Notes under the pieces: model-generated
Told to the model about the DNA's origin: nothing
What the model saw: only the letters and a program-made list of their open reading frames with translations
Databases searched by the model: none
Program-made: the position numbers and the translations under genes
Part shown: positions 1 to 7,926 of the stretch, piece by piece
How the letters are laid out: each line of letters begins with the position of its first letter
Position numbering within the stretch: the first letter of the stretch is position 1
Source of the DNA: a virus
Lineage: Duplodnaviria; Heunggongvirae; Uroviricota; Caudoviricetes
Reading direction: 5' to 3' (one strand)
Virus record (IMG/VR): IMGVR_UViG_2526164662_000016
Length of the DNA: 7,926 nucleotides

Positions 1-51
1 TAAACTGGAAGGCGTCGTGAAATTATCTGACTGATACAGGAGCTGGAGAGT

Positions 52-102: not shown

Positions 103-1149
103 TCAGGATGTGGGCTGGATGTCTAACAGTGCGTAAGGGTTAAAGCGGATCACCTCTTCGCCAAGCCAGTCATTGATGTGCTTCATGGCCTCCATGACGG
201 GCATCAGCTCGTTAATTGCGTAAACCCGCGCGGCCTTCTCCACATCACCAAACGCACTTTTTTCACCCGGCATCGCCCCCATCAGTTGCGGCGGAACGCG
301 GTGCGCAGCCAGCACATCATCACGGGATGCCGCCTTAACATTCATGAACTCATCCTTTGCGGTGATCTGCTGGAACGGCAAAATTTGCACACCTTCTTTG
401 CCACCGTTGGGCGCATGAATGAGCACGTTTTTAAACGCACCGCCACCACGTGCACCCTGTAGCGTTTCTTTCAGGGAGTCCATGCTTTCGCGGTTTACCT
501 GCGCTGCACCGATGTAGATGATGCACCCGGCGTGGGATCCGTTGTCGTAATACAGTTTTCTGAACATGTCCGCCGAATGAGACAGGCTGGCCGAGAGTAA
601 TGCGCCGAGATATTCCGGCATGCCGTAGATTTCCTGGTTAATGTCAGGATTCATCAGGTGGCACACTTTGCCAGGGCGAAACTGAAACGCGTCCTTACCA
701 TCCTGCACATACCACCATGATTCAAGATCGCTTCCGCGTCGCATGTATTTCGCCAGGGCGTGCCGTAATTTAAGCGGTTCGCCGAGCATATTGCTTCGAA
801 GCTCAAGGAATGCGTTACCGAACACAAACCAGTCCAGCGCCAGCGCCGAGAAATCCTGCCGGGAAAGCAGCGGGTGCGGAATATAGCAACCGAGCAATAC
901 ATTGCGCTTAAAGTAAAGCGCAGACTGATGCCAGGACGTTTGCCGGGCAGCTCTTGCCAGACCGTACCAGTCCACCGGGGTTTCGTACCACCGCCCGTTA
1001 TCAGCACAGTACATATTGTCCAGCAGGTCATGCCCGGTCAGGCGATAAGGACCATCAAATGTGAATGCACTGAGCGATGATTCTTTCCTGAGCGCATCAG
1101 CAAGATCAATGCGTGAACTCATGCGCACTTTTTTATTTTTTCTGCTCAT
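103..1149 (-). CDS. Q: Phage portal (capsid portal) protein, P2 gpQ-like
   Basis: 348-aa ORF, first gene of a leftward Q-P pair with the same position, orientation and size as P2 Q. The ATG at 1149 is preceded on the minus strand by GGAG with 5-nt spacing and overlaps the stop of the upstream terminase gene (TGATGA), which suggests translational coupling. Assignment is from synteny and recalled family features; no search run. Confidence 0.88.
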   Translation of the reverse strand: MSRKNKKVRMSSRIDLADALRKESSLSAFTFDGPYRLTGHDLLDNMYCADNGRWYETPVDWYGLARAARQTSWHQSALYFKRNVLLGCYIPHPLLSRQDFSALALDWFVFGNAFLELRSNMLGEPLKLRHALAKYMRRGSDLESWWYVQDGKDAFQFRPGKVCHLMNPDINQEIYGMPEYLGALLSASLSHSADMFRKLYYDNGSHAGCIIYIGAAQVNRESMDSLKETLQGARGGGAFKNVLIHAPNGGKEGVQILPFQQITAKDEFMNVKAASRDDVLAAHRVPPQLMGAMPGEKSAFGDVEKAARVYAINELMPVMEAMKHINDWLGEEVIRFNPYALLDIQPTS

Positions 1150-2898
1150 CAGAACTCCATAACCGTGAAACGCTCGTTTTCTCCTTCGCCGCCAATTGGT
1201 TCGTTAATGACAGCAAGCATGGTTGCCCACGCAAGGTCGCCGTGACTGATCCCCCTCGCGCGGTCCGTTTCGTAAGTGATAAAGCCGCCCGGTGTTTTCA
1301 CCTTACGCACGGCGTTAAAGGCCGCGACCAGCTCGCGTTCGGCGCGATCGTATTCCCACCGCCCGGCACGCATTATTTGCAGCATTTTCAGTACCAGCGA
1401 CCGTTTTGATGACAGCGTGAAGGTGTACGGAATAGCAGCAGGGAAAAACCGCTTCACTATCTGATAAACAGCCTCCCCGTTCCCGCCCGTCACATCAATG
1501 CCGATGTGTTCCACGTTGTAGCGATACGTGAACTCTTCAATGACTCTGGCCTGTTCTTCAAACTCCAGCCCCTGAACGCGTCGCGTCTCCACCGTTCGAA
1601 AACGGCCACCAGGAACAGCCGGAGGAACCACCACGGACACTGCGCCGCTGTCGCCGTTTCCACTGCTGCCGTTTGCGTCATACCCAATCCATACCGGACG
1701 ATTCCCCATCGGGCGGGAGCAAAAGGTTTCCAGTCTTTCCAGTCGTCGTATCCGTCAACACCGCAGCCAATCAGGATATTCAGGTTAAATGCCGATTCCC
1801 CTTCGCGGACAAACTCACACATATAGAGATTGAGGAACTCGTCTTCGGTGTTTTCATCACGAATTTCGTCGATATCGGTGTGTTTCCAACCGTGATTGAC
1901 CACATCTTCCAGCGTGACAATTTGCCGCCACGTCCTGTCAGGGCAGATAAGCCCGTTATGCAGCGTTTTCCAGTCCACAGAAAAACGCTGGCGTTTATGC
2001 GAGGCCTTTTTCTCGTTCCAGCGGTCGCCGTTCCAGTAGGCGTATGCCTCGTGCGTTTCGGTGGATGGCGTGGAGAAGTAGGTGCGCCGCAGTCCGCTGA
2101 GGGTTGCCATAGCGCCAGCCACCTTGCGCAGTTCGGCAAAGCGACTGACCCAGAAAAATTCATCAAAATAAAAATTGCCCGTATAGGACTGTGCCGACGC
2201 AGCAGAAGTGCCGAGAAAATGCAGCTCTGCGCCGTTGGAGAGGATGATTTTATCGCCCCCTTTCAGCTCCACATCAACTTCAGCCGCGGCCTTCTGAATA
2301 ATGCTTTTAAACTGGAACGCCTGACGACGCGACGCAGACAAAAAAATCTGGTTACGCTGGTAAGGTTGCGCCACATCGTCACGCAGCGCCATCAGCAGTG
2401 CTTCCTGTGCAAAATACCAGGTCGCCCCAATCTGTCGGGATTTCAGGATCATCCTGTTACGTATCCCGGCTTCCCTGCAAAGGGTCAGGGAGTCAAACCA
2501 GCCCCGCTGATGCCACTCCAGCCTGCTGATGATTTTTTCCCGCAGTGCGGCAATCTGTTCCGGCGTGAAATGATTTTTGAGTTTTTTCGCCCGGCCTTTC
2601 TTTCCTGCGGCCATCACATCCGGCTGGCCATCATGCAGCTTTTTAAGCTGCCGGATCAGCAGGTCTATTTCCTTAAAGTCACCGCCTGTTTTATTCTGTT
2701 TTTCAGTAAGCTGGATGAGGCGCGCATCGATGGACTGCGTGACACGCTGCACGGGTGGCGTTTCATCCCACTGGTCACGTTTTTCCACGCATAAATCGTG
2801 TTCGGGTTTATTCCCATCAGACGTGATATTTCTGCGGGCGGATAACCCTGCCAGTAAAGTTGCCGCGCACGCTGGCGCACAAAAGCGTCCTGAATCAT
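1149..2898 (-). pseudogene. P: Terminase large (ATPase/nuclease) subunit, P2 gpP-like, interrupted by two frameshifts (true pseudogene or homopolymer sequencing error)
   Basis: Three consecutive minus-strand ORFs in three frames together span about 583 codons, close to the P2 gpP size I recall (about 590 aa). Segment 2898..2665 encodes the N-terminus MIQDAFVRQRARQLYWQGYPPAEISRLMGINPNTIYAWKN then runs into unconvincing sequence. Segment 2788..1490 continues with EKRDQWDETPPVQ... through the ATPase region and then degenerates after ...DWKPFAP. Segment 1709..1149 carries the C-terminal nuclease-like region RPVWIGYD...TVMEF. Frame junctions are at a T5 run (plus strand 2781-2785; A5 on the coding strand) and at the C/G runs near 1703-1716. 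Confidence 0.8.
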
Positions 2899-3052: not shown

Positions 3053-3889
3053 ATGGCTAATGAAAAAAAGACATCCCGCAAAAAGTTTCGCGTGGCTGTC
3101 TCCGGATCAACTGTTGATGGCCGTGAAATCAGCCCGGTGCATCTGCGTGAAGCCGCCGAGAACTTCAACCCGGATGTTTACGCTGCCCGCGTGAACGTTG
3201 AGCACTATCTCTCGCCATGCCCGTCAAGCGAATTTTCCGCAATGGGCGATGTCACCGCGCTGAGTACGGAAGACATTACGGAAGGTCCGCTGGCCGGACG
3301 TACTGCGCTGTATGCAGAAATCGAACCGACCGAGCGCATGAAGCAGCTTGTCGCTGACGGCAAGAAAATCTATTCCAGTATCGAACTGCACCCGCAGTTC
3401 TCCGTTAACGGGCGCGCCTATCTGGTCGGGCTGGCGATGACCGACACCCCGGCAAGCCTGGGCACTGAGCGCCTGAAATTCACGGCACAGCAACGTCAGG
3501 CGGTGATGACGTTCAACAGTATCCAGGGTGAAGCACCGCTTATCTCCGAAGCCATCGAGTCTGAAATCATCGAAATGGCAGAACAACGCCAGGAAGAAGG
3601 CACCCAGTGGTTTAACCGCGTAATGGGGATTATTGGCCGTGGCCGCAAAGCGGATGACGCCAGTTTTTCCCGTATTCAGGAAGCGGTGGAAGGCGTAGCA
3701 ACGTCACAGGCCGACATTATCGACCGTTTTAATGTGCTGGAAACCCGCCATCAGCAGGACCGCCAGAAAATCACGTCACTGACCACAGAGCTGGCAGCAC
3801 TGAAGGAAAAACTGCACACGCAGGACGGCGATCCGCAGAACCGCTTCACCGCAACGGGCGCAGCCTCCGACCAGCTGGCTGACTTCTGA
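3053..3889 (+). CDS. O: Capsid scaffolding protein (scaffold/prohead protease), P2 gpO-like
   Basis: The ORF is open from 3020, but ATG 3053 (MANEKKTSRKKFRVAVSG...) has the SD GAGGGG 9 nt upstream and aligns with my recollection of the P2 gpO N-terminus (MAKKVSKFFRIG...). Shared motifs include YLVGLAMTDTPASLGTE versus P2 YLVGLAVTDDPASLGTE as recalled. It lies immediately upstream of the major capsid gene. Alternative start at 3020. Confidence 0.85.
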   Translation: MANEKKTSRKKFRVAVSGSTVDGREISPVHLREAAENFNPDVYAARVNVEHYLSPCPSSEFSAMGDVTALSTEDITEGPLAGRTALYAEIEPTERMKQLVADGKKIYSSIELHPQFSVNGRAYLVGLAMTDTPASLGTERLKFTAQQRQAVMTFNSIQGEAPLISEAIESEIIEMAEQRQEEGTQWFNRVMGIIGRGRKADDASFSRIQEAVEGVATSQADIIDRFNVLETRHQQDRQKITSLTTELAALKEKLHTQDGDPQNRFTATGAASDQLADF

Positions 3890-3912
3890 TAAGACAAAGG
3901 AGCAAATTTTTT

Positions 3913-4965
3913 ATGAATCTGGTGATGTCAGATATTACCCGCAACAAGCTGGGTTGCTATATGGCGCAGCAGGCGTCGCTTAACAATATCCCGGTATCTG
4001 CACTGGTATCGCGATTCACCGTGGAACCCGCGGTGCAGCAGCGTTTTGAAAACGCCTCAAAGGAAAGTACCGAATTTACGAAAAGAATTAACGTGATCGG
4101 TGTGACCGACCAGAAAGGCGAAAAAATCCTCCTGGATACCACCGGGCCGATTGCGCGCACGAATACCAGTTATGACGGCACAAAACGCCGTAACCCGAAT
4201 AACGTGGTTGATCTGAAAAACCGCAAATACCAGTGCGAACAGGTGAACTACGACACGTTTATTTCATATCCGCAGCTTGATGCCTGGGCGGCACACCCTG
4301 ATTTTCAGTCCCGCATCAGCGCACAGATTGCCCGACAGGTGGCACTTGACCGCATCATGATCGGTTTCAACGGCACGTCTCACGCGGATGAGTCCAACTT
4401 CAGCACCAACAAGCTGCTTCAGGACGTTAACGTGGGATGGCTGGAGCACATCAGAACCGACGCCAGCGAGCGCGTTATGAATGACGTGACGCTGACCTCA
4501 CGCAACATGGACAACACCGTGGCGCACGCGGGTAAGTATGCGAACGCTGATGCACTGGTACAGGACGCGCGCTCATCCCTGCTGGATGAATGGCACAAGG
4601 AAGCTGACGACCTCGTGGTGATTATGGGGCGCAACCTGTTTAACTCGCTGCGTCTGCCCGTGCTGAACAGCATCAGCGGCCAGAATCCCAATGCGGAATT
4701 ACTCGCCGGGCAGCTCATTCTGTCATCGCGCACCATTGGCGGGCTGGGCGTGTTCCTTGCGCCGTTCTTCCCGGATGCAACGATGCTGATCACCTCGTTC
4801 AACAACCTGTCGATTTACTGGCAGAAAGGTTCAATGCGTCGTCTGATGAAAGACGAACCGGAATACAACCGCATCGCCACCTACCAGTCCATCAATGACG
4901 CTTATGTCGTTGAAGACTATGGCAAGTGCGCGATGGTCACTGGCCTGAAGTTCGCCGACAGCTAA
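3913..4965 (+). CDS. N: Major capsid protein, P2 gpN-like
   Basis: 350-aa ORF with AAGGAG 10 nt upstream of the ATG. Motifs match my recollection of P2 gpN: RFTVEP, KYQCEQVNYDTFISY, MIGFNGTS, LQDVNVGW, DLVVIMGRNL, NLSIYW, YVVEDYG. Position between scaffold and terminase small subunit fits. Confidence 0.92.
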   Translation: MNLVMSDITRNKLGCYMAQQASLNNIPVSALVSRFTVEPAVQQRFENASKESTEFTKRINVIGVTDQKGEKILLDTTGPIARTNTSYDGTKRRNPNNVVDLKNRKYQCEQVNYDTFISYPQLDAWAAHPDFQSRISAQIARQVALDRIMIGFNGTSHADESNFSTNKLLQDVNVGWLEHIRTDASERVMNDVTLTSRNMDNTVAHAGKYANADALVQDARSSLLDEWHKEADDLVVIMGRNLFNSLRLPVLNSISGQNPNAELLAGQLILSSRTIGGLGVFLAPFFPDATMLITSFNNLSIYWQKGSMRRLMKDEPEYNRIATYQSINDAYVVEDYGKCAMVTGLKFADS

Positions 4966-4974
4966 TCAACTCAC

Positions 4975-4993
4975 GGCGGGCATCATGCCCGCC
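4975..4993. other. GC-rich hairpin in the N-M spacer (ggcgggc-atcat-gcccgcc)
   Basis: Read directly: a 7-bp perfect stem with 5-nt loop 10 bp after the capsid gene stop. No following T-run, so more likely an mRNA-stability or processing hairpin than a strong intrinsic terminator. Confidence 0.3.
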
Positions 4994-5010
4994 TGTAACG
5001 GAGAGAAAAA

Positions 5011-5811
5011 ATGATTACTCCTGCACAGCAACACTGGCAGAACGTGATGGCACAGCGCGCAGGCCGGGCGAATGAAGGCGTGGACCACGCCGCGCGTACC
5101 GCGCATGAAGAGGTGCTGTATCGTCTGCGTCTGGCACAGGCCCGGCTTAAGGGCGTACAGGCCAGAAGCGCGAAAGCCGCCATCAAAAAAGAGTTGTTGC
5201 CGGACTTTTCCGGCTGGATTGAGGGAACGCTGGAGGCTGACGGCGGGCAGCAGGATGAAGTGATTGCCACGCTGATGGTGTGGGCGATTGACTGCGGCGA
5301 TCTTCCGCTTGCGCTGCGTATTGGTGCGTATGTGGTCCGTCACAACCTCATCATGCCGGATAACTTTGGCCGTACTGCTGCCACGGTACTGACCGAAGAA
5401 ATCTGCAACCCGGTATTGACGCAGGCCGGGACGGATGCCGACGCGGATTTGTCCACCTTTATCGAACCACTGGACACACTTTGGGAAATTGTCGCCAACC
5501 AGGATATGCCGGACGAAGTGCGCGCCAAATTATGCAAGGCGTGCGCCTTTGCCCGCCGTGGCCTGAGCGATGCGGACAGCATGACCTCATCACTGAAGCT
5601 GCTGCGCGAAGCGATGCACCTGAACCCGAACGCAGGTGTGAAACGCGAGATTGCAACCCTTTCCCGCGCCCTGAAAAAAGCTGATTCCACAGCCGCACCA
5701 GAAGATGCCAGCACACCGCAGGCGCAGGACGAAAGCAGCAAAAGTAAAAAGACAACGCGGAAGCCTGCAACACGAAAAACCACCGCGACGCAGAAGGCGA
5801 AGCGCGGTTAA
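5011..5811 (+). CDS. M: Terminase small (endonuclease/DNA-recognition) subunit, P2 gpM-like
   Basis: 266-aa ORF with GGAG 7 nt upstream. The N-terminus MITPAQQHW and motifs ELLPDF and DMPDEVRAKL match my recollection of P2 gpM. The basic Lys/Arg/Thr-rich C-terminal tail is typical of this family. Confidence 0.87.
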   Translation: MITPAQQHWQNVMAQRAGRANEGVDHAARTAHEEVLYRLRLAQARLKGVQARSAKAAIKKELLPDFSGWIEGTLEADGGQQDEVIATLMVWAIDCGDLPLALRIGAYVVRHNLIMPDNFGRTAATVLTEEICNPVLTQAGTDADADLSTFIEPLDTLWEIVANQDMPDEVRAKLCKACAFARRGLSDADSMTSSLKLLREAMHLNPNAGVKREIATLSRALKKADSTAAPEDASTPQAQDESSKSKKTTRKPATRKTTATQKAKRG

Positions 5812-5828
5812 CGACTGACCCCGTCAGC

Positions 5829-5898
5829 GGGCGGCGTGCGCGGTGTTCCGGTTTGACTCCGTGACCGTTTACACCGCGCACCCACCGCCCGATTTTTT
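5829..5898 (+). terminator. Long interrupted GC-rich inverted repeat followed by a T6 run in the M-L spacer; candidate partial intrinsic terminator or RNA structure
   Basis: Read directly: 5835-5844 gtgcgcggtg pairs with 5872-5881 caccgcgcac, and 5829-5834 gggcgg pairs with 5885-5890 ccgccc, followed by tttttt at 5893-5898 just ahead of the L ribosome-binding site. The loop is long (27 nt), so the call is tentative. Confidence 0.35.
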
Positions 5899-5912
5899 CA
5901 GGAGTGAACCCC

Positions 5913-6407
5913 ATGAGTATGGTTGCCAGAACCAACCCCGGACCCGCAGAGGACGACATCACCGATACCGATGATGGTGATACCCGTATTTCAGCGGGTG
6001 CATTCTGGCCGGATATTGTGCTGCGTGAGCTGCGTCTGGCGATACGACTGCCGGGCCGTGTGACCACCTCCCGCCTGCTGCATACCGCCACCGGGGCGGT
6101 GGCCCACGTTACCCGTGAGCTGGAAGCGTGGCAGCAGGAACAGCAGGCAGCCGGACACGAAACACTGGCCGATGTCCCGGCGCCATTAATTAACGGAGAA
6201 AGCGTCAATCTCTGGCACTGGCGCAATGCGGTTTACAGCGCCACCCGTGCCCTGATTCTGGAGCGTTACCGCGATGCGGACACAACGGATAAGGGCGACC
6301 GCCGCGCGGACGCACTGGATATACAGACATCGGATTTGTGGCGCGATGTGAGCTGGGCCATCTCTGACATTCTGTGCCGCCCGCGAATCTTTGCGGAGTT
6401 GTGCTGA
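5913..6407 (+). CDS. L: Head completion/stabilisation protein, P2 gpL-like
   Basis: ATG 5913 (MSMVARTN...) with AGGAG 9 nt upstream; the ORF track's 5904 start is an in-frame GTG. Motifs LADVPA, ERYR and DLWRDVSWAI match my recollection of P2 gpL. The stop TGA overlaps the ATG of X (TGATGA at 6405-6409). Confidence 0.85.
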   Translation: MSMVARTNPGPAEDDITDTDDGDTRISAGAFWPDIVLRELRLAIRLPGRVTTSRLLHTATGAVAHVTRELEAWQQEQQAAGHETLADVPAPLINGESVNLWHWRNAVYSATRALILERYRDADTTDKGDRRADALDIQTSDLWRDVSWAISDILCRPRIFAELC

Positions 6408-6607
6408 TGAAAGTGAAGGCACTGGAAGGCGACACCGTGGATTCGCTCTGTTTCCGGTACTACGGCACGACGCAGGGCGTCACCGAAAAGGTGCTGGATG
6501 CCAACCCCGGACTCTGTCAGCAGGTATTTCTGAACGCCGGGCAGGAAGTGGAGATGCCGGAGCCGGAGAAGAAGAAACGAGAAATGATTCAGTTGTGGGG
6601 GGAGTAG
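6407..6607 (+). CDS. X: Tail protein X (small LysM-like tail component), P2 gpX-like
   Basis: 66-aa product MKVKALEGDTVDSLCFRYYGTTQGVTEKVLDANPGL... resembles my recollection of P2 gpX (MKTFALQGDTLDAICVRYYGRTEGVVETVLAANPGL...). The ATG overlaps the L stop. Confidence 0.85.
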   Translation: MKVKALEGDTVDSLCFRYYGTTQGVTEKVLDANPGLCQQVFLNAGQEVEMPEPEKKKREMIQLWGE

Positions 6608-6609
6608 TA

Positions 6610-6933
6610 GTGAGCACCATTCAAACAGGGATCACTGAGCAGGTTATTGCATGGCTCTTTGACCACCTGCCAACGGTGTATGCAGCAGGCGCGGCGGTCA
6701 GCATTTCCGCGCTGATGAGTCTTTATGACGGACGAACACTGGTTCAGACCGTAACGGGATCGCTGGCGTGCGGCGTTCTTGCCATGGCCGTGGCCGGGTC
6801 GTTGCGCTTCTTCGGAGTTCCTGAAGATGCCGTGACGTTTTTCGGCGCATCTATCGGTTTTATGGGCGCAGAAAAAGCACGCGACAAGATCATTGCCGCC
6901 TTTAACCGCATAACCCAAAAGGGAGATGAATAA
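6610..6933 (+). CDS. Putative holin (three predicted transmembrane segments, charged C-terminus)
   Basis: GTG 6610 follows SD GGGGGAG at 6-nt spacing, 3 nt after the X stop. The 107-aa product has three hydrophobic stretches (VYAAGAAVSISALMSLY; LVQTVTGSLACGVLAMAVAGSL; AVTFFGASIGFMGA) and a charged tail EKARDKIIAAFNRITQKGDE. It sits immediately upstream of the endolysin. Start codon is uncertain; the track's 6391 start would overlap L and X and is rejected. Confidence 0.6.
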   Translation: MSTIQTGITEQVIAWLFDHLPTVYAAGAAVSISALMSLYDGRTLVQTVTGSLACGVLAMAVAGSLRFFGVPEDAVTFFGASIGFMGAEKARDKIIAAFNRITQKGDE

Positions 6934-6987
6934 GCCACAGGCTTAAAGCCGGTAATCACCATAAAAATCATTCACAGAGGTGACGAA

Positions 6988-7533
6988 ATGAAATCGAAAG
7001 ACGAAATTTTTGATGCCGTTCTTGGCAAAGAAGGCGGCTACGTCAATCACCCGGATGACAGAGGCGGTCCGACAAAATGGGGCATCACTGAAAAGGTGGC
7101 ACGGGCGCACGGATACCGTGGCGATATGCGTGATTTAACGCGCGGACAGGCACTGGAAATCCTTGAAGCTGATTACTGGTACGGACCGCGTTTTGATCAG
7201 ATAGCGAAGCTGTCCCCGGATATTGCCGCAGAACTGTGTGACACCGGAGTAAATATGGGGCCCTCTGTGGCAACCAGAATGCTTCAGCGCTGGCTGAACG
7301 TATTTAATCAGGGCGGGAAACTGTATCCCGATATGGACACGGACGGACGCACTGGCCCACGCACGATTAACGCATTGCGTGTATATCTGGAAAAACGCGG
7401 TCGGGACGGCGAGATGGTGATGTTAACAGCACTGAACTGTACACAGGGTGAACGCTATCTGGAGCTGGCGGAAAAACGCGAAGCCAACGAGTCGTTTGTC
7501 TACGGCTGGATAAAGGAACGCGTGGCAGCATGA
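6988..7533 (+). CDS. Endolysin, glycoside hydrolase family 108 N-acetylmuramidase with C-terminal peptidoglycan-binding domain
   Basis: 181-aa ORF with SD GAGGTG 5 nt upstream. The N-terminal EGGYVNHPDDRGGPTKWGIT contains the GH108 signature EGGY with the catalytic Glu. The C-terminal half resembles a PG_binding_3-type domain. It lies between the holin and spanin genes. Confidence 0.85.
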   Translation: MKSKDEIFDAVLGKEGGYVNHPDDRGGPTKWGITEKVARAHGYRGDMRDLTRGQALEILEADYWYGPRFDQIAKLSPDIAAELCDTGVNMGPSVATRMLQRWLNVFNQGGKLYPDMDTDGRTGPRTINALRVYLEKRGRDGEMVMLTALNCTQGERYLELAEKREANESFVYGWIKERVAA

Positions 7534-7926
7534 GGTTATGGACTTCTCTGGGCGTCGCTTTTCTTCTGATTGCCGCATGGGGAACATCCATGCGTCTGTC
7601 GTGGTCGCTGGGCCGGGAGAACGCCAGAAACGAAGCGCAGGCCAGCACCCTGAAAAGTACCGTCGACACCCTGAATATCATCAGCGCCGGGGTACAGGAT
7701 ATGCAGCAGGTGCTGGCACAACTCCGCGTGGAAAATCAACAGCGAAATCAGGACGGAGAGGCCAGACGTGAACAGCTACGCAACGATATTGCAAAAGATG
7801 AATGCGCCCACGCTTTGCCTGACGCTCGTTTTACTGACAGGTTGCGCAGGCACGCAGAACGCGCCACGGCCAGCGCCGTCAGCCCGGCTTATACCGCAGA
7901 CGCTGACCATACCGGTAACGCCGCCC
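7530..7926 (+). CDS. i-spanin (Rz/LysB-like inner-membrane spanin), 3' partial, runs off the window end
   Basis: Found by my own translation; absent from the ORF track because there is no stop in the window. ATG 7530 overlaps the endolysin stop (ATGA). Product MRLWTSLGVAFLLIAAWGTSMRLSWSLGRENARNEAQASTLKSTVDTLNIISAGVQDMQQVLAQLRVENQQRNQDGEARREQLRNDIAKDE... has an N-terminal TM helix followed by a charged, Gln/Arg-rich, probably coiled-coil periplasmic region. Confidence 0.7.
   Translation, partial: MRLWTSLGVAFLLIAAWGTSMRLSWSLGRENARNEAQASTLKSTVDTLNIISAGVQDMQQVLAQLRVENQQRNQDGEARREQLRNDIAKDECAHALPDARFTDRLRRHAERATASAVSPAYTADADHTGNAA
7798..7926 (+). CDS. o-spanin (Rz1/LysC-like outer-membrane lipoprotein) embedded in the +1 frame of the i-spanin gene, 3' partial
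   Basis: My own translation from ATG 7798: MNAPTLCLTLVLLTGCAGTQNAPRPAPSARLIPQTLTIPVTPP... It has a lipoprotein signal peptide with lipobox LLTG|C and a proline-rich mature region, in a different frame from and wholly inside the i-spanin ORF. Confidence 0.7.
   Translation, partial: MNAPTLCLTLVLLTGCAGTQNAPRPAPSARLIPQTLTIPVTPP

What the first reader, a model, noticed from the sequence alone, without database searches (positions are those of the whole stretch)
1149..2898. Terminase large-subunit gene split into three frames by two single-base changes at homopolymer runs
Every other gene in the module is intact, but the P-like terminase ATPase reads through three frames. Junction 1 is where ...NTIYAWKN should continue into RDQWDETPP; the coding strand has A5 there (plus-strand T5 at 2781-2785), and restoring A6 would give the natural reading ...IYAWKKRDQWDE... 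Junction 2 is near 1703-1716, where ...DWKPFAP should continue into RPVWIGYD; one extra base in the C/G run would rejoin the frames. If real, the prophage cannot package DNA and is a defective or domesticated element that keeps intact capsid, lysis and probably tail genes. If artefactual, it flags homopolymer errors in this assembly that may affect other calls.
Basis: seen in the sequence. Interest (0 to 1): 0.55.

Follow-up and report, generated by a model that had tools for sequence, protein, structure and literature searches.

The report
Frameshifted prophage terminase, probably assembly error
The DNA-packaging gene of an ordinary P2-type prophage really is broken into three reading frames here, but the two missing bases sit in single-letter runs of a 2012 draft contig of E. 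coli DEC10F and are most likely sequencing errors, not biology.

Summary
The gpP-type large terminase gene (minus strand, 1149-2898) reads in three frames. Compared with three intact relatives, the whole 7,926-base window has only two indels, both inside this gene: A6->A5 at codon 39/40 and C4->C3 at about codon 396. Restoring both bases gives a 583-aa protein that already exists, letter for letter, on 36 public contigs.

The window is the entire contig AIGU01000045.1 of the 2012 draft assembly of E. coli DEC10F. Neither mutant junction occurs as an exact 90-mer in about 1,084 complete E. coli records carrying this gene, nor as an exact 40/41-mer in species-representative genomes or IMG/VR.

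The A6->A5 change otherwise turned up only in indel-ridden assemblies and in DEC12A, a different strain from the same project. DEC12A's terminase carries three single-base indels and no other decay. Other authors have already flagged suspicious frameshifts in DEC9A, DEC9E and DEC10D. The same laboratory's E. coli genomes of that year used 454 chemistry, which miscounts single-letter runs.

Homopolymer undercalls in the draft assembly are the best explanation (about 0.7). A real, very recent packaging-dead prophage remains possible (about 0.27). Either way this is routine, so interest is low.

The parts
1149..2898 (-). gpP-type large terminase gene (HTH + ATPase + RNase-H-like nuclease), 1750 nt here against 1752 nt in intact relatives
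   Evidence: Alignment to the intact genes of L001, L026 and L029. Pfam on the repaired protein gives Terminase_5 at 6-63, Terminase_6N at 150-374 and Terminase_6C at 405-566.
2781..2785 (-). Junction 1: coding-strand A5 where relatives have A6 (codon 39/40, inside the N-terminal HTH domain). The reading frame shifts and stops after 77 aa.
   Evidence: The same lesion occurs in DEC12A and in indel-ridden long-read assemblies.
1715..1717 (-). Junction 2: coding-strand C3 where relatives have C4 (about codon 395-397, in the linker between the ATPase and nuclease domains)
   Evidence: Otherwise seen only in two low-quality contigs, L022 and L024.
2665..2898 (-). Fragment 1: 77-aa product (39 native residues plus 38 out of frame), GenBank EHW95070.1
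1490..2788 (-). Fragment 2: middle frame holding the ATPase domain. The longest ORF is 432 aa; the depositor's CDS is 374 aa (1490-2614), EHW95069.1.
1149..1709 (-). Fragment 3: nuclease-domain frame, 186 aa from the internal ATG (the depositor called 102 aa, 1149-1457). Its stop overlaps the portal gene start.
103..1149 (-). Portal gene (gpQ-like), intact, 348 aa
   Evidence: Exact protein found on more than 1000 contigs; no indels
3053..7533 (+). Intact head and lysis module: gpO scaffold, gpN capsid, gpM small terminase, gpL, gpX, holin and GH108 endolysin. lysB is cut by the contig end at 7926.
   Evidence: No indels against three references.

Best explanation
This is the ordinary large terminase gene (gpP type) of a P2-family, P88-like (Xuanwuvirus-like) prophage of E. 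coli DEC10F. In the deposited 2012 draft contig, AIGU01000045.1, two homopolymers are one base short: A6 is read as A5 and C4 as C3. That puts the HTH, ATPase and nuclease parts in three frames.

The most likely cause is homopolymer undercalling during sequencing or consensus building of that draft assembly. On that reading the real phage gene is a single 583-codon ORF and the prophage's packaging motor is intact.

Shown here: the two deletions, their positions, their privacy to this contig, the absence of any other decay, and the same kind of lesion in a sister assembly. Inferred: that the cause is technical. The reads could not be inspected, and the sequencing platform of this particular genome could not be confirmed.
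For: (1) There are only two indels in 7,926 nt against three independent intact relatives. Both are 1-nt deletions in homopolymers.

(2) The window is the whole contig AIGU01000045.1 of GCA_000250095.2, E. coli DEC10F.

(3) The repaired protein is identical to a protein present on 36 other contigs. It differs from the IHE3034 gene at 12 nt and 1 aa, so there is no sign of relaxed selection.

(4) Neither mutant 90-mer is found at 99% identity or above in about 1,084 complete E. coli records that carry the gene. Neither exact 40/41-mer junction pattern is found in GTDB representative genomes or IMG/VR.

(5) DEC12A is a different strain and allele from the same sequencing project. It has the identical A6->A5 lesion, plus T4->T3 and +G in its terminase and TT->T just upstream. 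All four lie within 1.6 kb of a contig end, with none in its portal gene or in a further 4.4 kb aligned to another reference. The repaired ORF has no stops and 4 aa differences.

(6) All other carriers of the 77-aa product that were examined are assemblies with 13-29 indels against the window, so this A-run is a proven error hotspot. Two further assemblies that make similar 77-aa products, L035 and L036, also carry several to many indels.

(8) The same laboratory's E. coli genomes of 2012 were produced with 454 Titanium FLX and Celera (PMC3491183). From general knowledge, 454 chemistry is known for homopolymer miscalls.
Against: The other 6.2 kb of the contig, with 72 runs of 4 or more identical bases, has no indel at all, so the assembly is not error-ridden overall.

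Replication slippage in vivo produces exactly the same kind of lesion, and defective prophages are common in E. coli.

The sequencing platform of DEC10F itself was not confirmed. The genome announcement, Hazen et al. 2012 (PMC3370608), is not in the held library. No reads or independent re-sequencing of DEC10F were found: the rare gpL allele gave no second DEC10F-derived contig.
Confidence: 0.7

Rival explanations
1. The two deletions are real, very recent slippage mutations in strain DEC10F. The prophage then makes a truncated HTH peptide and, at best, poorly translated ATPase and nuclease fragments. It cannot cut and package DNA, so it is a freshly defective prophage with intact head and lysis genes.
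For: Homopolymer slippage is a normal mutational route. The rest of the contig is free of indels, so a generally poor assembly is not evident. Truncated 'gpP N-terminus-related' proteins are annotated in several complete genomes, so broken P2-type terminases do exist in finished sequences.
Against: Two independent hits in one gene with no other change to the protein would need both events to be extremely recent. Both alleles are private to one 2012 draft contig. A sister assembly from the same project shows three indels in the same gene, including the identical one, again with no other decay. Independent biology would not be expected to produce that pattern twice.
Confidence: 0.27
2. The frame changes are functional. 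Either programmed -1 ribosomal or transcriptional slippage at the A-run and the C-run rebuilds full-length terminase at a low level, or the runs act as phase-variable switches.
For: A -1 slip on AAA at A5 and on CCC at C3 would each regenerate exactly the wild-type peptide (WKKR and APRPM). This follows directly from the sequence.
Against: Essentially all relatives, at 97-99% identity, carry the plain in-frame gene, so nothing is conserved that would mark a recoding site. The runs are only 5 and 3 bases long, which from general knowledge is far shorter than known slippage or phase-variation tracts. Two inefficient events in series would yield negligible product.
Confidence: 0.02

Closest known systems
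Large terminase subunit gpP of P2-family phages (Peduoviridae), closest named phages Escherichia phage P88 / Xuanwuvirus and Citrobacter phage Shae_phiSM
   Same: The gene order is the same: Q (portal) and P on one strand, then O-N-M-L-X-holin-endolysin on the other. The terminase region is 97.4-99.2% identical in DNA to these named phages, and the whole window is 97.2-97.9% identical. The Pfam architecture is the same, Terminase_5 + Terminase_6N + Terminase_6C.
   Different: This copy lacks one A and one C, so it is not a single ORF. Intact relatives read 583 codons straight through.
   Same: After repair the protein has 1 aa difference from WP_000613782.1 and is 100% identical to P0156.
   Different: Only the two missing bases.
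Indel-fragmented terminases in error-prone assemblies (DEC12A AIHA01000068.1; long-read assemblies GCA_0532916xx; RefSeq phage records NC_049341.1 and NC_049343.1)
   Same: The terminase is split into two to four CDS by single-base indels. The A6->A5 lesion is identical in DEC12A and in the long-read assemblies examined.
   Different: Those assemblies, apart from DEC12A, also have broken capsid, scaffold or portal genes. Here only the terminase is affected.

Membership tests
P2-family (gpP-type) large terminase subunit | N-terminal gpP-type HTH domain (Pfam PF06056, Terminase_5) | tested here: met
   Repaired protein residues 6-63, 92 bits against a cut-off of 20.3. The 77-aa fragment also carries PF06056.
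P2-family (gpP-type) large terminase subunit | T4-type terminase ATPase domain (PF03237) followed by an RNase-H-like nuclease domain (PF17289) | tested here: met
   Residues 150-374 (170 bits) and 405-566 (110 bits). Read directly from the sequence, Walker-A-like SRQIGAT and Walker-B-like FYFDEFF motifs are present in the middle fragment.
P2-family (gpP-type) large terminase subunit | A single uninterrupted ORF of about 583 codons next to the portal gene, with stop and start overlapping | tested here: not met
   As deposited, the gene is in three frames. The feature is met only after restoring two bases. Overlap with the portal start at 1149 is retained.
P2-family (gpP-type) large terminase subunit | P2-type head-module synteny (Q, P / O, N, M, L, X, lysis genes) | tested here: met
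   Annotation of the collinear IHE3034 prophage and the called genes on the contig itself.
Homopolymer sequencing or assembly artefact | The lesion is a 1-nt length change inside a homopolymer, absent from independent sequences of the same or near-identical DNA | tested here: met
   A6->A5 and C4->C3. Both are absent from three near relatives and from about 1,084 complete-genome records as exact 90-mers. The limit is that no second sequence of DEC10F itself exists to compare.
Homopolymer sequencing or assembly artefact | The reads disagree with the consensus, or coverage or quality is low at the site | not testable with these tools
The rare gpL allele was found in no Logan assembly that could derive from DEC10F.
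Homopolymer sequencing or assembly artefact | The source data come from an error-prone platform, and sister assemblies show the same error class | tested here: inconclusive
   The sister assembly DEC12A shows the same lesion class and the same site. DEC9A, DEC9E and DEC10D have been flagged by others. Use of 454 Titanium is documented for the same laboratory's other 2012 genomes, but the DEC announcement itself could not be read.
Decaying (defective) prophage pseudogene | Signs of relaxed selection beyond the frameshifts: extra amino-acid changes, stops, or lesions in neighbouring genes | tested here: not met
   The repaired protein is identical to an intact protein found on 36 contigs, and all neighbouring genes are intact.
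Programmed frameshift or slippage site | The frameshift configuration is conserved among relatives | tested here: not met
   Relatives carry the in-frame gene.

The most novel reading that the evidence does not exclude
The deletions are real, and the element is a packaging-dead P2-type prophage kept with intact capsid and lysis genes, which would be an early snapshot of domestication. Less plausibly, the HTH, ATPase and nuclease parts are expressed separately, or rebuilt by -1 slippage, and still support some packaging.
Probability: 0.04. Interest if true: 0.35.

Novelty: not a real feature. Interest (0 to 1): 0.1.

Why it matters
Scientifically it matters little. If real, this is one more freshly inactivated prophage gene. 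If an artefact, which is more likely, it is a routine error in an old draft assembly.

The practical value is as a warning. Contigs of the 2012 DEC (DECA collection) assemblies can carry homopolymer indels. Frameshift, pseudogene or 'defective prophage' calls from these assemblies should therefore not be trusted without reads. The same caution applies to the indel-ridden phage reference records NC_049341.1 and NC_049343.1.

Tried and rejected
- **Longest middle ORF:** an exact look-up of the 432-aa form found nothing. Enumerating alternative starts found the depositor's 374-aa CDS and so identified the source contig.
- **Genome announcement:** the DEC paper (doi 10.1128/JB.00426-12, PMC3370608) is not held. 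A search for 'DEC10F' found no paper, and a search on 'DECA collection/454/Hazen' returned mostly noise.
- **P0017 look-up:** It succeeded after a homology search returned the same protein.
- **Owner of EHW96105.1:** I tried to decide whether this accession, which is the exact repaired protein, belongs to DEC10F (a second intact copy) or to the next genome in the batch. Accession arithmetic was inconclusive and the protein could not be looked up.
- **Clustering as evidence:** I considered treating two hits in one gene as evidence for or against either explanation. I rejected this because the terminase holds a third of the homopolymers, giving p about 0.11.
- **Recoding or phase variation:** rejected on comparative grounds, since relatives carry the in-frame gene.
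- **Metagenome scan:** not used, because it would not bear on strain DEC10F.

Full report
**What is in the sequence**

The ORF list and the minus-strand read show three overlapping reading frames where a single terminase gene is expected. They are 2665-2898 (77 aa), 1490-2788 (432 aa from the first GTG) and 1149-1709 (186 aa).

A megablast of 1100-2950 against phage and complete E. coli records found hundreds of near-identical copies. The best hits span 1853 bases against 1851 in the query. I aligned the whole window to the intact prophage of E. coli IHE3034 (L001). This gave 158 mismatches and exactly two 1-nt gaps, both inside the terminase gene.

- **Junction 1:** the coding strand reads GTGG-AAAAA-CGT where relatives have AAAAAA. 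This is plus-strand T5 at 2781-2785.
- **Junction 2:** the coding strand reads GCT-CCC-GCCCG where relatives have GCT-CCCC-GCCCG. This is plus-strand GGG at 1715-1717.

Putting the two bases back gives a 1752-nt ORF of 583 codons. It reads ...IYAWKKRDQWDE... and ...DWKPFAPRPMGNRPVWIGYD..., and differs from the IHE3034 protein at one residue. The two closest relatives I could find share this contig's rare gpL allele: L026, with 40 mismatches in 7,926 nt, and L029. Both show the same two gaps and no others, and both have an intact 583-aa terminase. Junction 2 lies just above the stated interval.

**What the gene is**

Pfam on the repaired protein gives three domains:
- Terminase_5, the gpP-type HTH, at residues 6-63
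- Terminase_6N, the ATPase, at 150-374
- Terminase_6C, the RNase-H-like nuclease, at 405-566

Junction 1 (codon 39/40) cuts the HTH domain. Junction 2 (about codon 396) falls in the ATPase-nuclease linker.

The surrounding genes are the standard P2-family head and lysis module: portal; scaffold gpO, capsid gpN, small terminase gpM, gpL, gpX, holin, GH108 endolysin and lysB. The closest named phages are P88-like Peduoviridae, at 97-98% identity across the window. Every other protein on the contig is an exact match to full-length proteins seen elsewhere, so the rest of the module is intact.

**Where the window comes from**

The longest form of the middle ORF was not on record. Trying alternative start codons showed that the 374-aa form is GenBank EHW95069.1, 'terminase-like family protein [Escherichia coli DEC10F]'. 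It sits on one contig of exactly 7,926 bp. That contig, AIGU01000045.1 of assembly GCA_000250095.2, matches the window with no mismatches. The window is therefore a complete small contig of a 2012 draft genome from the DECA collection project.

**Are the two deletions seen anywhere else?**

Ninety-base queries centred on each mutant junction found no record at 99% identity or above among about 1,084 complete E. coli records that carry this gene. One caveat applies: a record with the deletion plus a nearby SNP would not stand out in this test. Exact-pattern scans of species-representative genomes and of IMG/VR found nothing.

The 77-aa product of junction 1 occurs on 15 other contigs. All ten that I examined are megabase contigs with 13-29 indels relative to the window and with fragmented capsid, scaffold and portal genes. 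The junction-2 allele occurs only in two short, low-quality contigs that also carry 5-13 other indels. Other 77-aa variants come from assemblies with several to many indels (L035, L036). Both sites are therefore demonstrated error hotspots in poor assemblies, and neither allele is found in a clean independent sequence.

**The sister assembly**

The 90%-identity cluster holding the 77-aa product is represented by EHX20787.1 from E. coli DEC12A. This is a different strain and allele from the same sequencing project, broken at the same A-run.

Its contig, AIHA01000068.1, ends 171 nt upstream of the terminase. Within 1.6 kb of that end it carries four single-base indels: TT->T upstream of the gene, the identical A6->A5, T4->T3 at codon 244, and +G at codon 478. 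There are none in its portal gene, and none in a further 4.4 kb that aligns to another reference. After repair the DEC12A terminase has no stop codon and 4 amino-acid differences from IHE3034.

Three frameshifts with no other decay, next to a contig end, look like consensus errors, not evolution. Separately, Delannoy et al. [quoted passage not shown] The DEC genome announcement is not in the held library. However, the same laboratory's other E. coli genomes of 2012 were produced with 454 Titanium FLX and Celera (PMC3491183). From general knowledge, pyrosequencing characteristically miscounts homopolymers. My own recollection that the DEC genomes used 454 data is unverified.

**Weighing the explanations**

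In favour of a technical artefact:
- Both lesions are homopolymer undercalls.
- They are private to one old draft contig.
- The repaired protein is identical to one found on 36 other contigs, with 12 nucleotide differences and 1 amino-acid difference from IHE3034, so nothing suggests relaxed selection.
- The same project's DEC12A assembly has the same lesion class in the same gene.

In favour of real mutations:
- The remaining 6.2 kb of the contig, with 72 runs of 4 or more identical bases, is free of indels.
- Slippage in vivo gives the same signature.

The fact that both hits lie in one gene does not discriminate between the two. The terminase holds 35 of 107 such runs, so p is about 0.11 for two random homopolymer hits.

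Programmed recoding or phase variation is excluded for practical purposes, because relatives carry the plain in-frame gene and the runs are very short. I put the artefact at about 0.7, real recent pseudogenisation at about 0.27, and anything functional at about 0.02.

**Consequences under each reading**

If the deletions are artefacts, the prophage encodes a normal gpP and nothing here is unusual.

If they are real, translation from the native start ends after 77 residues, 39 native and 38 out of frame. The ATPase and nuclease domains would lack a proper start. The phage could assemble proheads and lyse the cell but could not cut and package DNA. This step is inferred from the established role of large terminases and was not tested here.

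**Novelty and interest**

Either way this is a familiar situation, so interest is low (0.1). The useful outcome is a quality flag on the DEC draft assemblies. Some phage reference records show the same kind of fragmentation.

Noticed in passing
L003 (NC_049341.1) 1-2846 and L004 (NC_049343.1) 1-2850: Two RefSeq phage exemplar genomes, Escherichia phage 503458 and 500465-2, have their terminase, scaffold and portal genes each annotated as two or three separate CDS. They show 10-26 gaps against the window, so they look like indel-ridden reference records.
   Followed up: partly
window 1149-2898 (repaired protein P0156): The exact repaired 583-aa terminase carries GenBank accession EHW96105.1, which is 1,027 numbers after this contig's own proteins (EHW95067-95078). 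It may be a second, intact copy in the same DEC10F assembly, meaning a second P2-like prophage or a redundant contig, or it may belong to the next genome in the batch. This could not be resolved.
   Followed up: partly
L034 1-1700 (DEC12A contig AIHA01000068.1): The DEC12A terminase has three single-base indels, plus one just upstream, all within 1.6 kb of the contig end. The rest of the contig aligns to relatives without gaps. This is a pattern of errors concentrated at a contig end.
   Followed up: yes
window 6042-6305 (gpL): Of the 158 mismatches against the IHE3034 prophage, 29 fall in this 260-nt stretch of the head-completion gene. The resulting gpL allele is rare (8 contigs). This looks like a small recombination patch.
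   Followed up: partly
window 6911-7547: In many otherwise collinear relatives the GH108 endolysin region is replaced by a Peptidase_M15_4 endolysin, and alignments break at about 6910 and resume at about 7548. This is a mosaic swap of the lysis cassette.
   Followed up: no
window 1-7 and 7926: The left contig end coincides with the point downstream of the portal gene where P2-like prophages switch from conserved to variable cargo, since most alignments start at base 1 or 7. This suggests the assembler broke at a repeat boundary between related prophages in DEC10F.
   Followed up: no
window 1149-2898 (public annotations of homologues): Several NCBI entries for this terminase, or for fragments of it, are named 'oxidoreductase'. 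This is evidently a propagated mis-annotation.
   Followed up: no
window 7822-7926: By collinearity with the IHE3034 annotation, the start of an embedded Rz1-like lysC gene overlaps lysB at the very end of the contig. It is cut off by the contig end.
   Followed up: no
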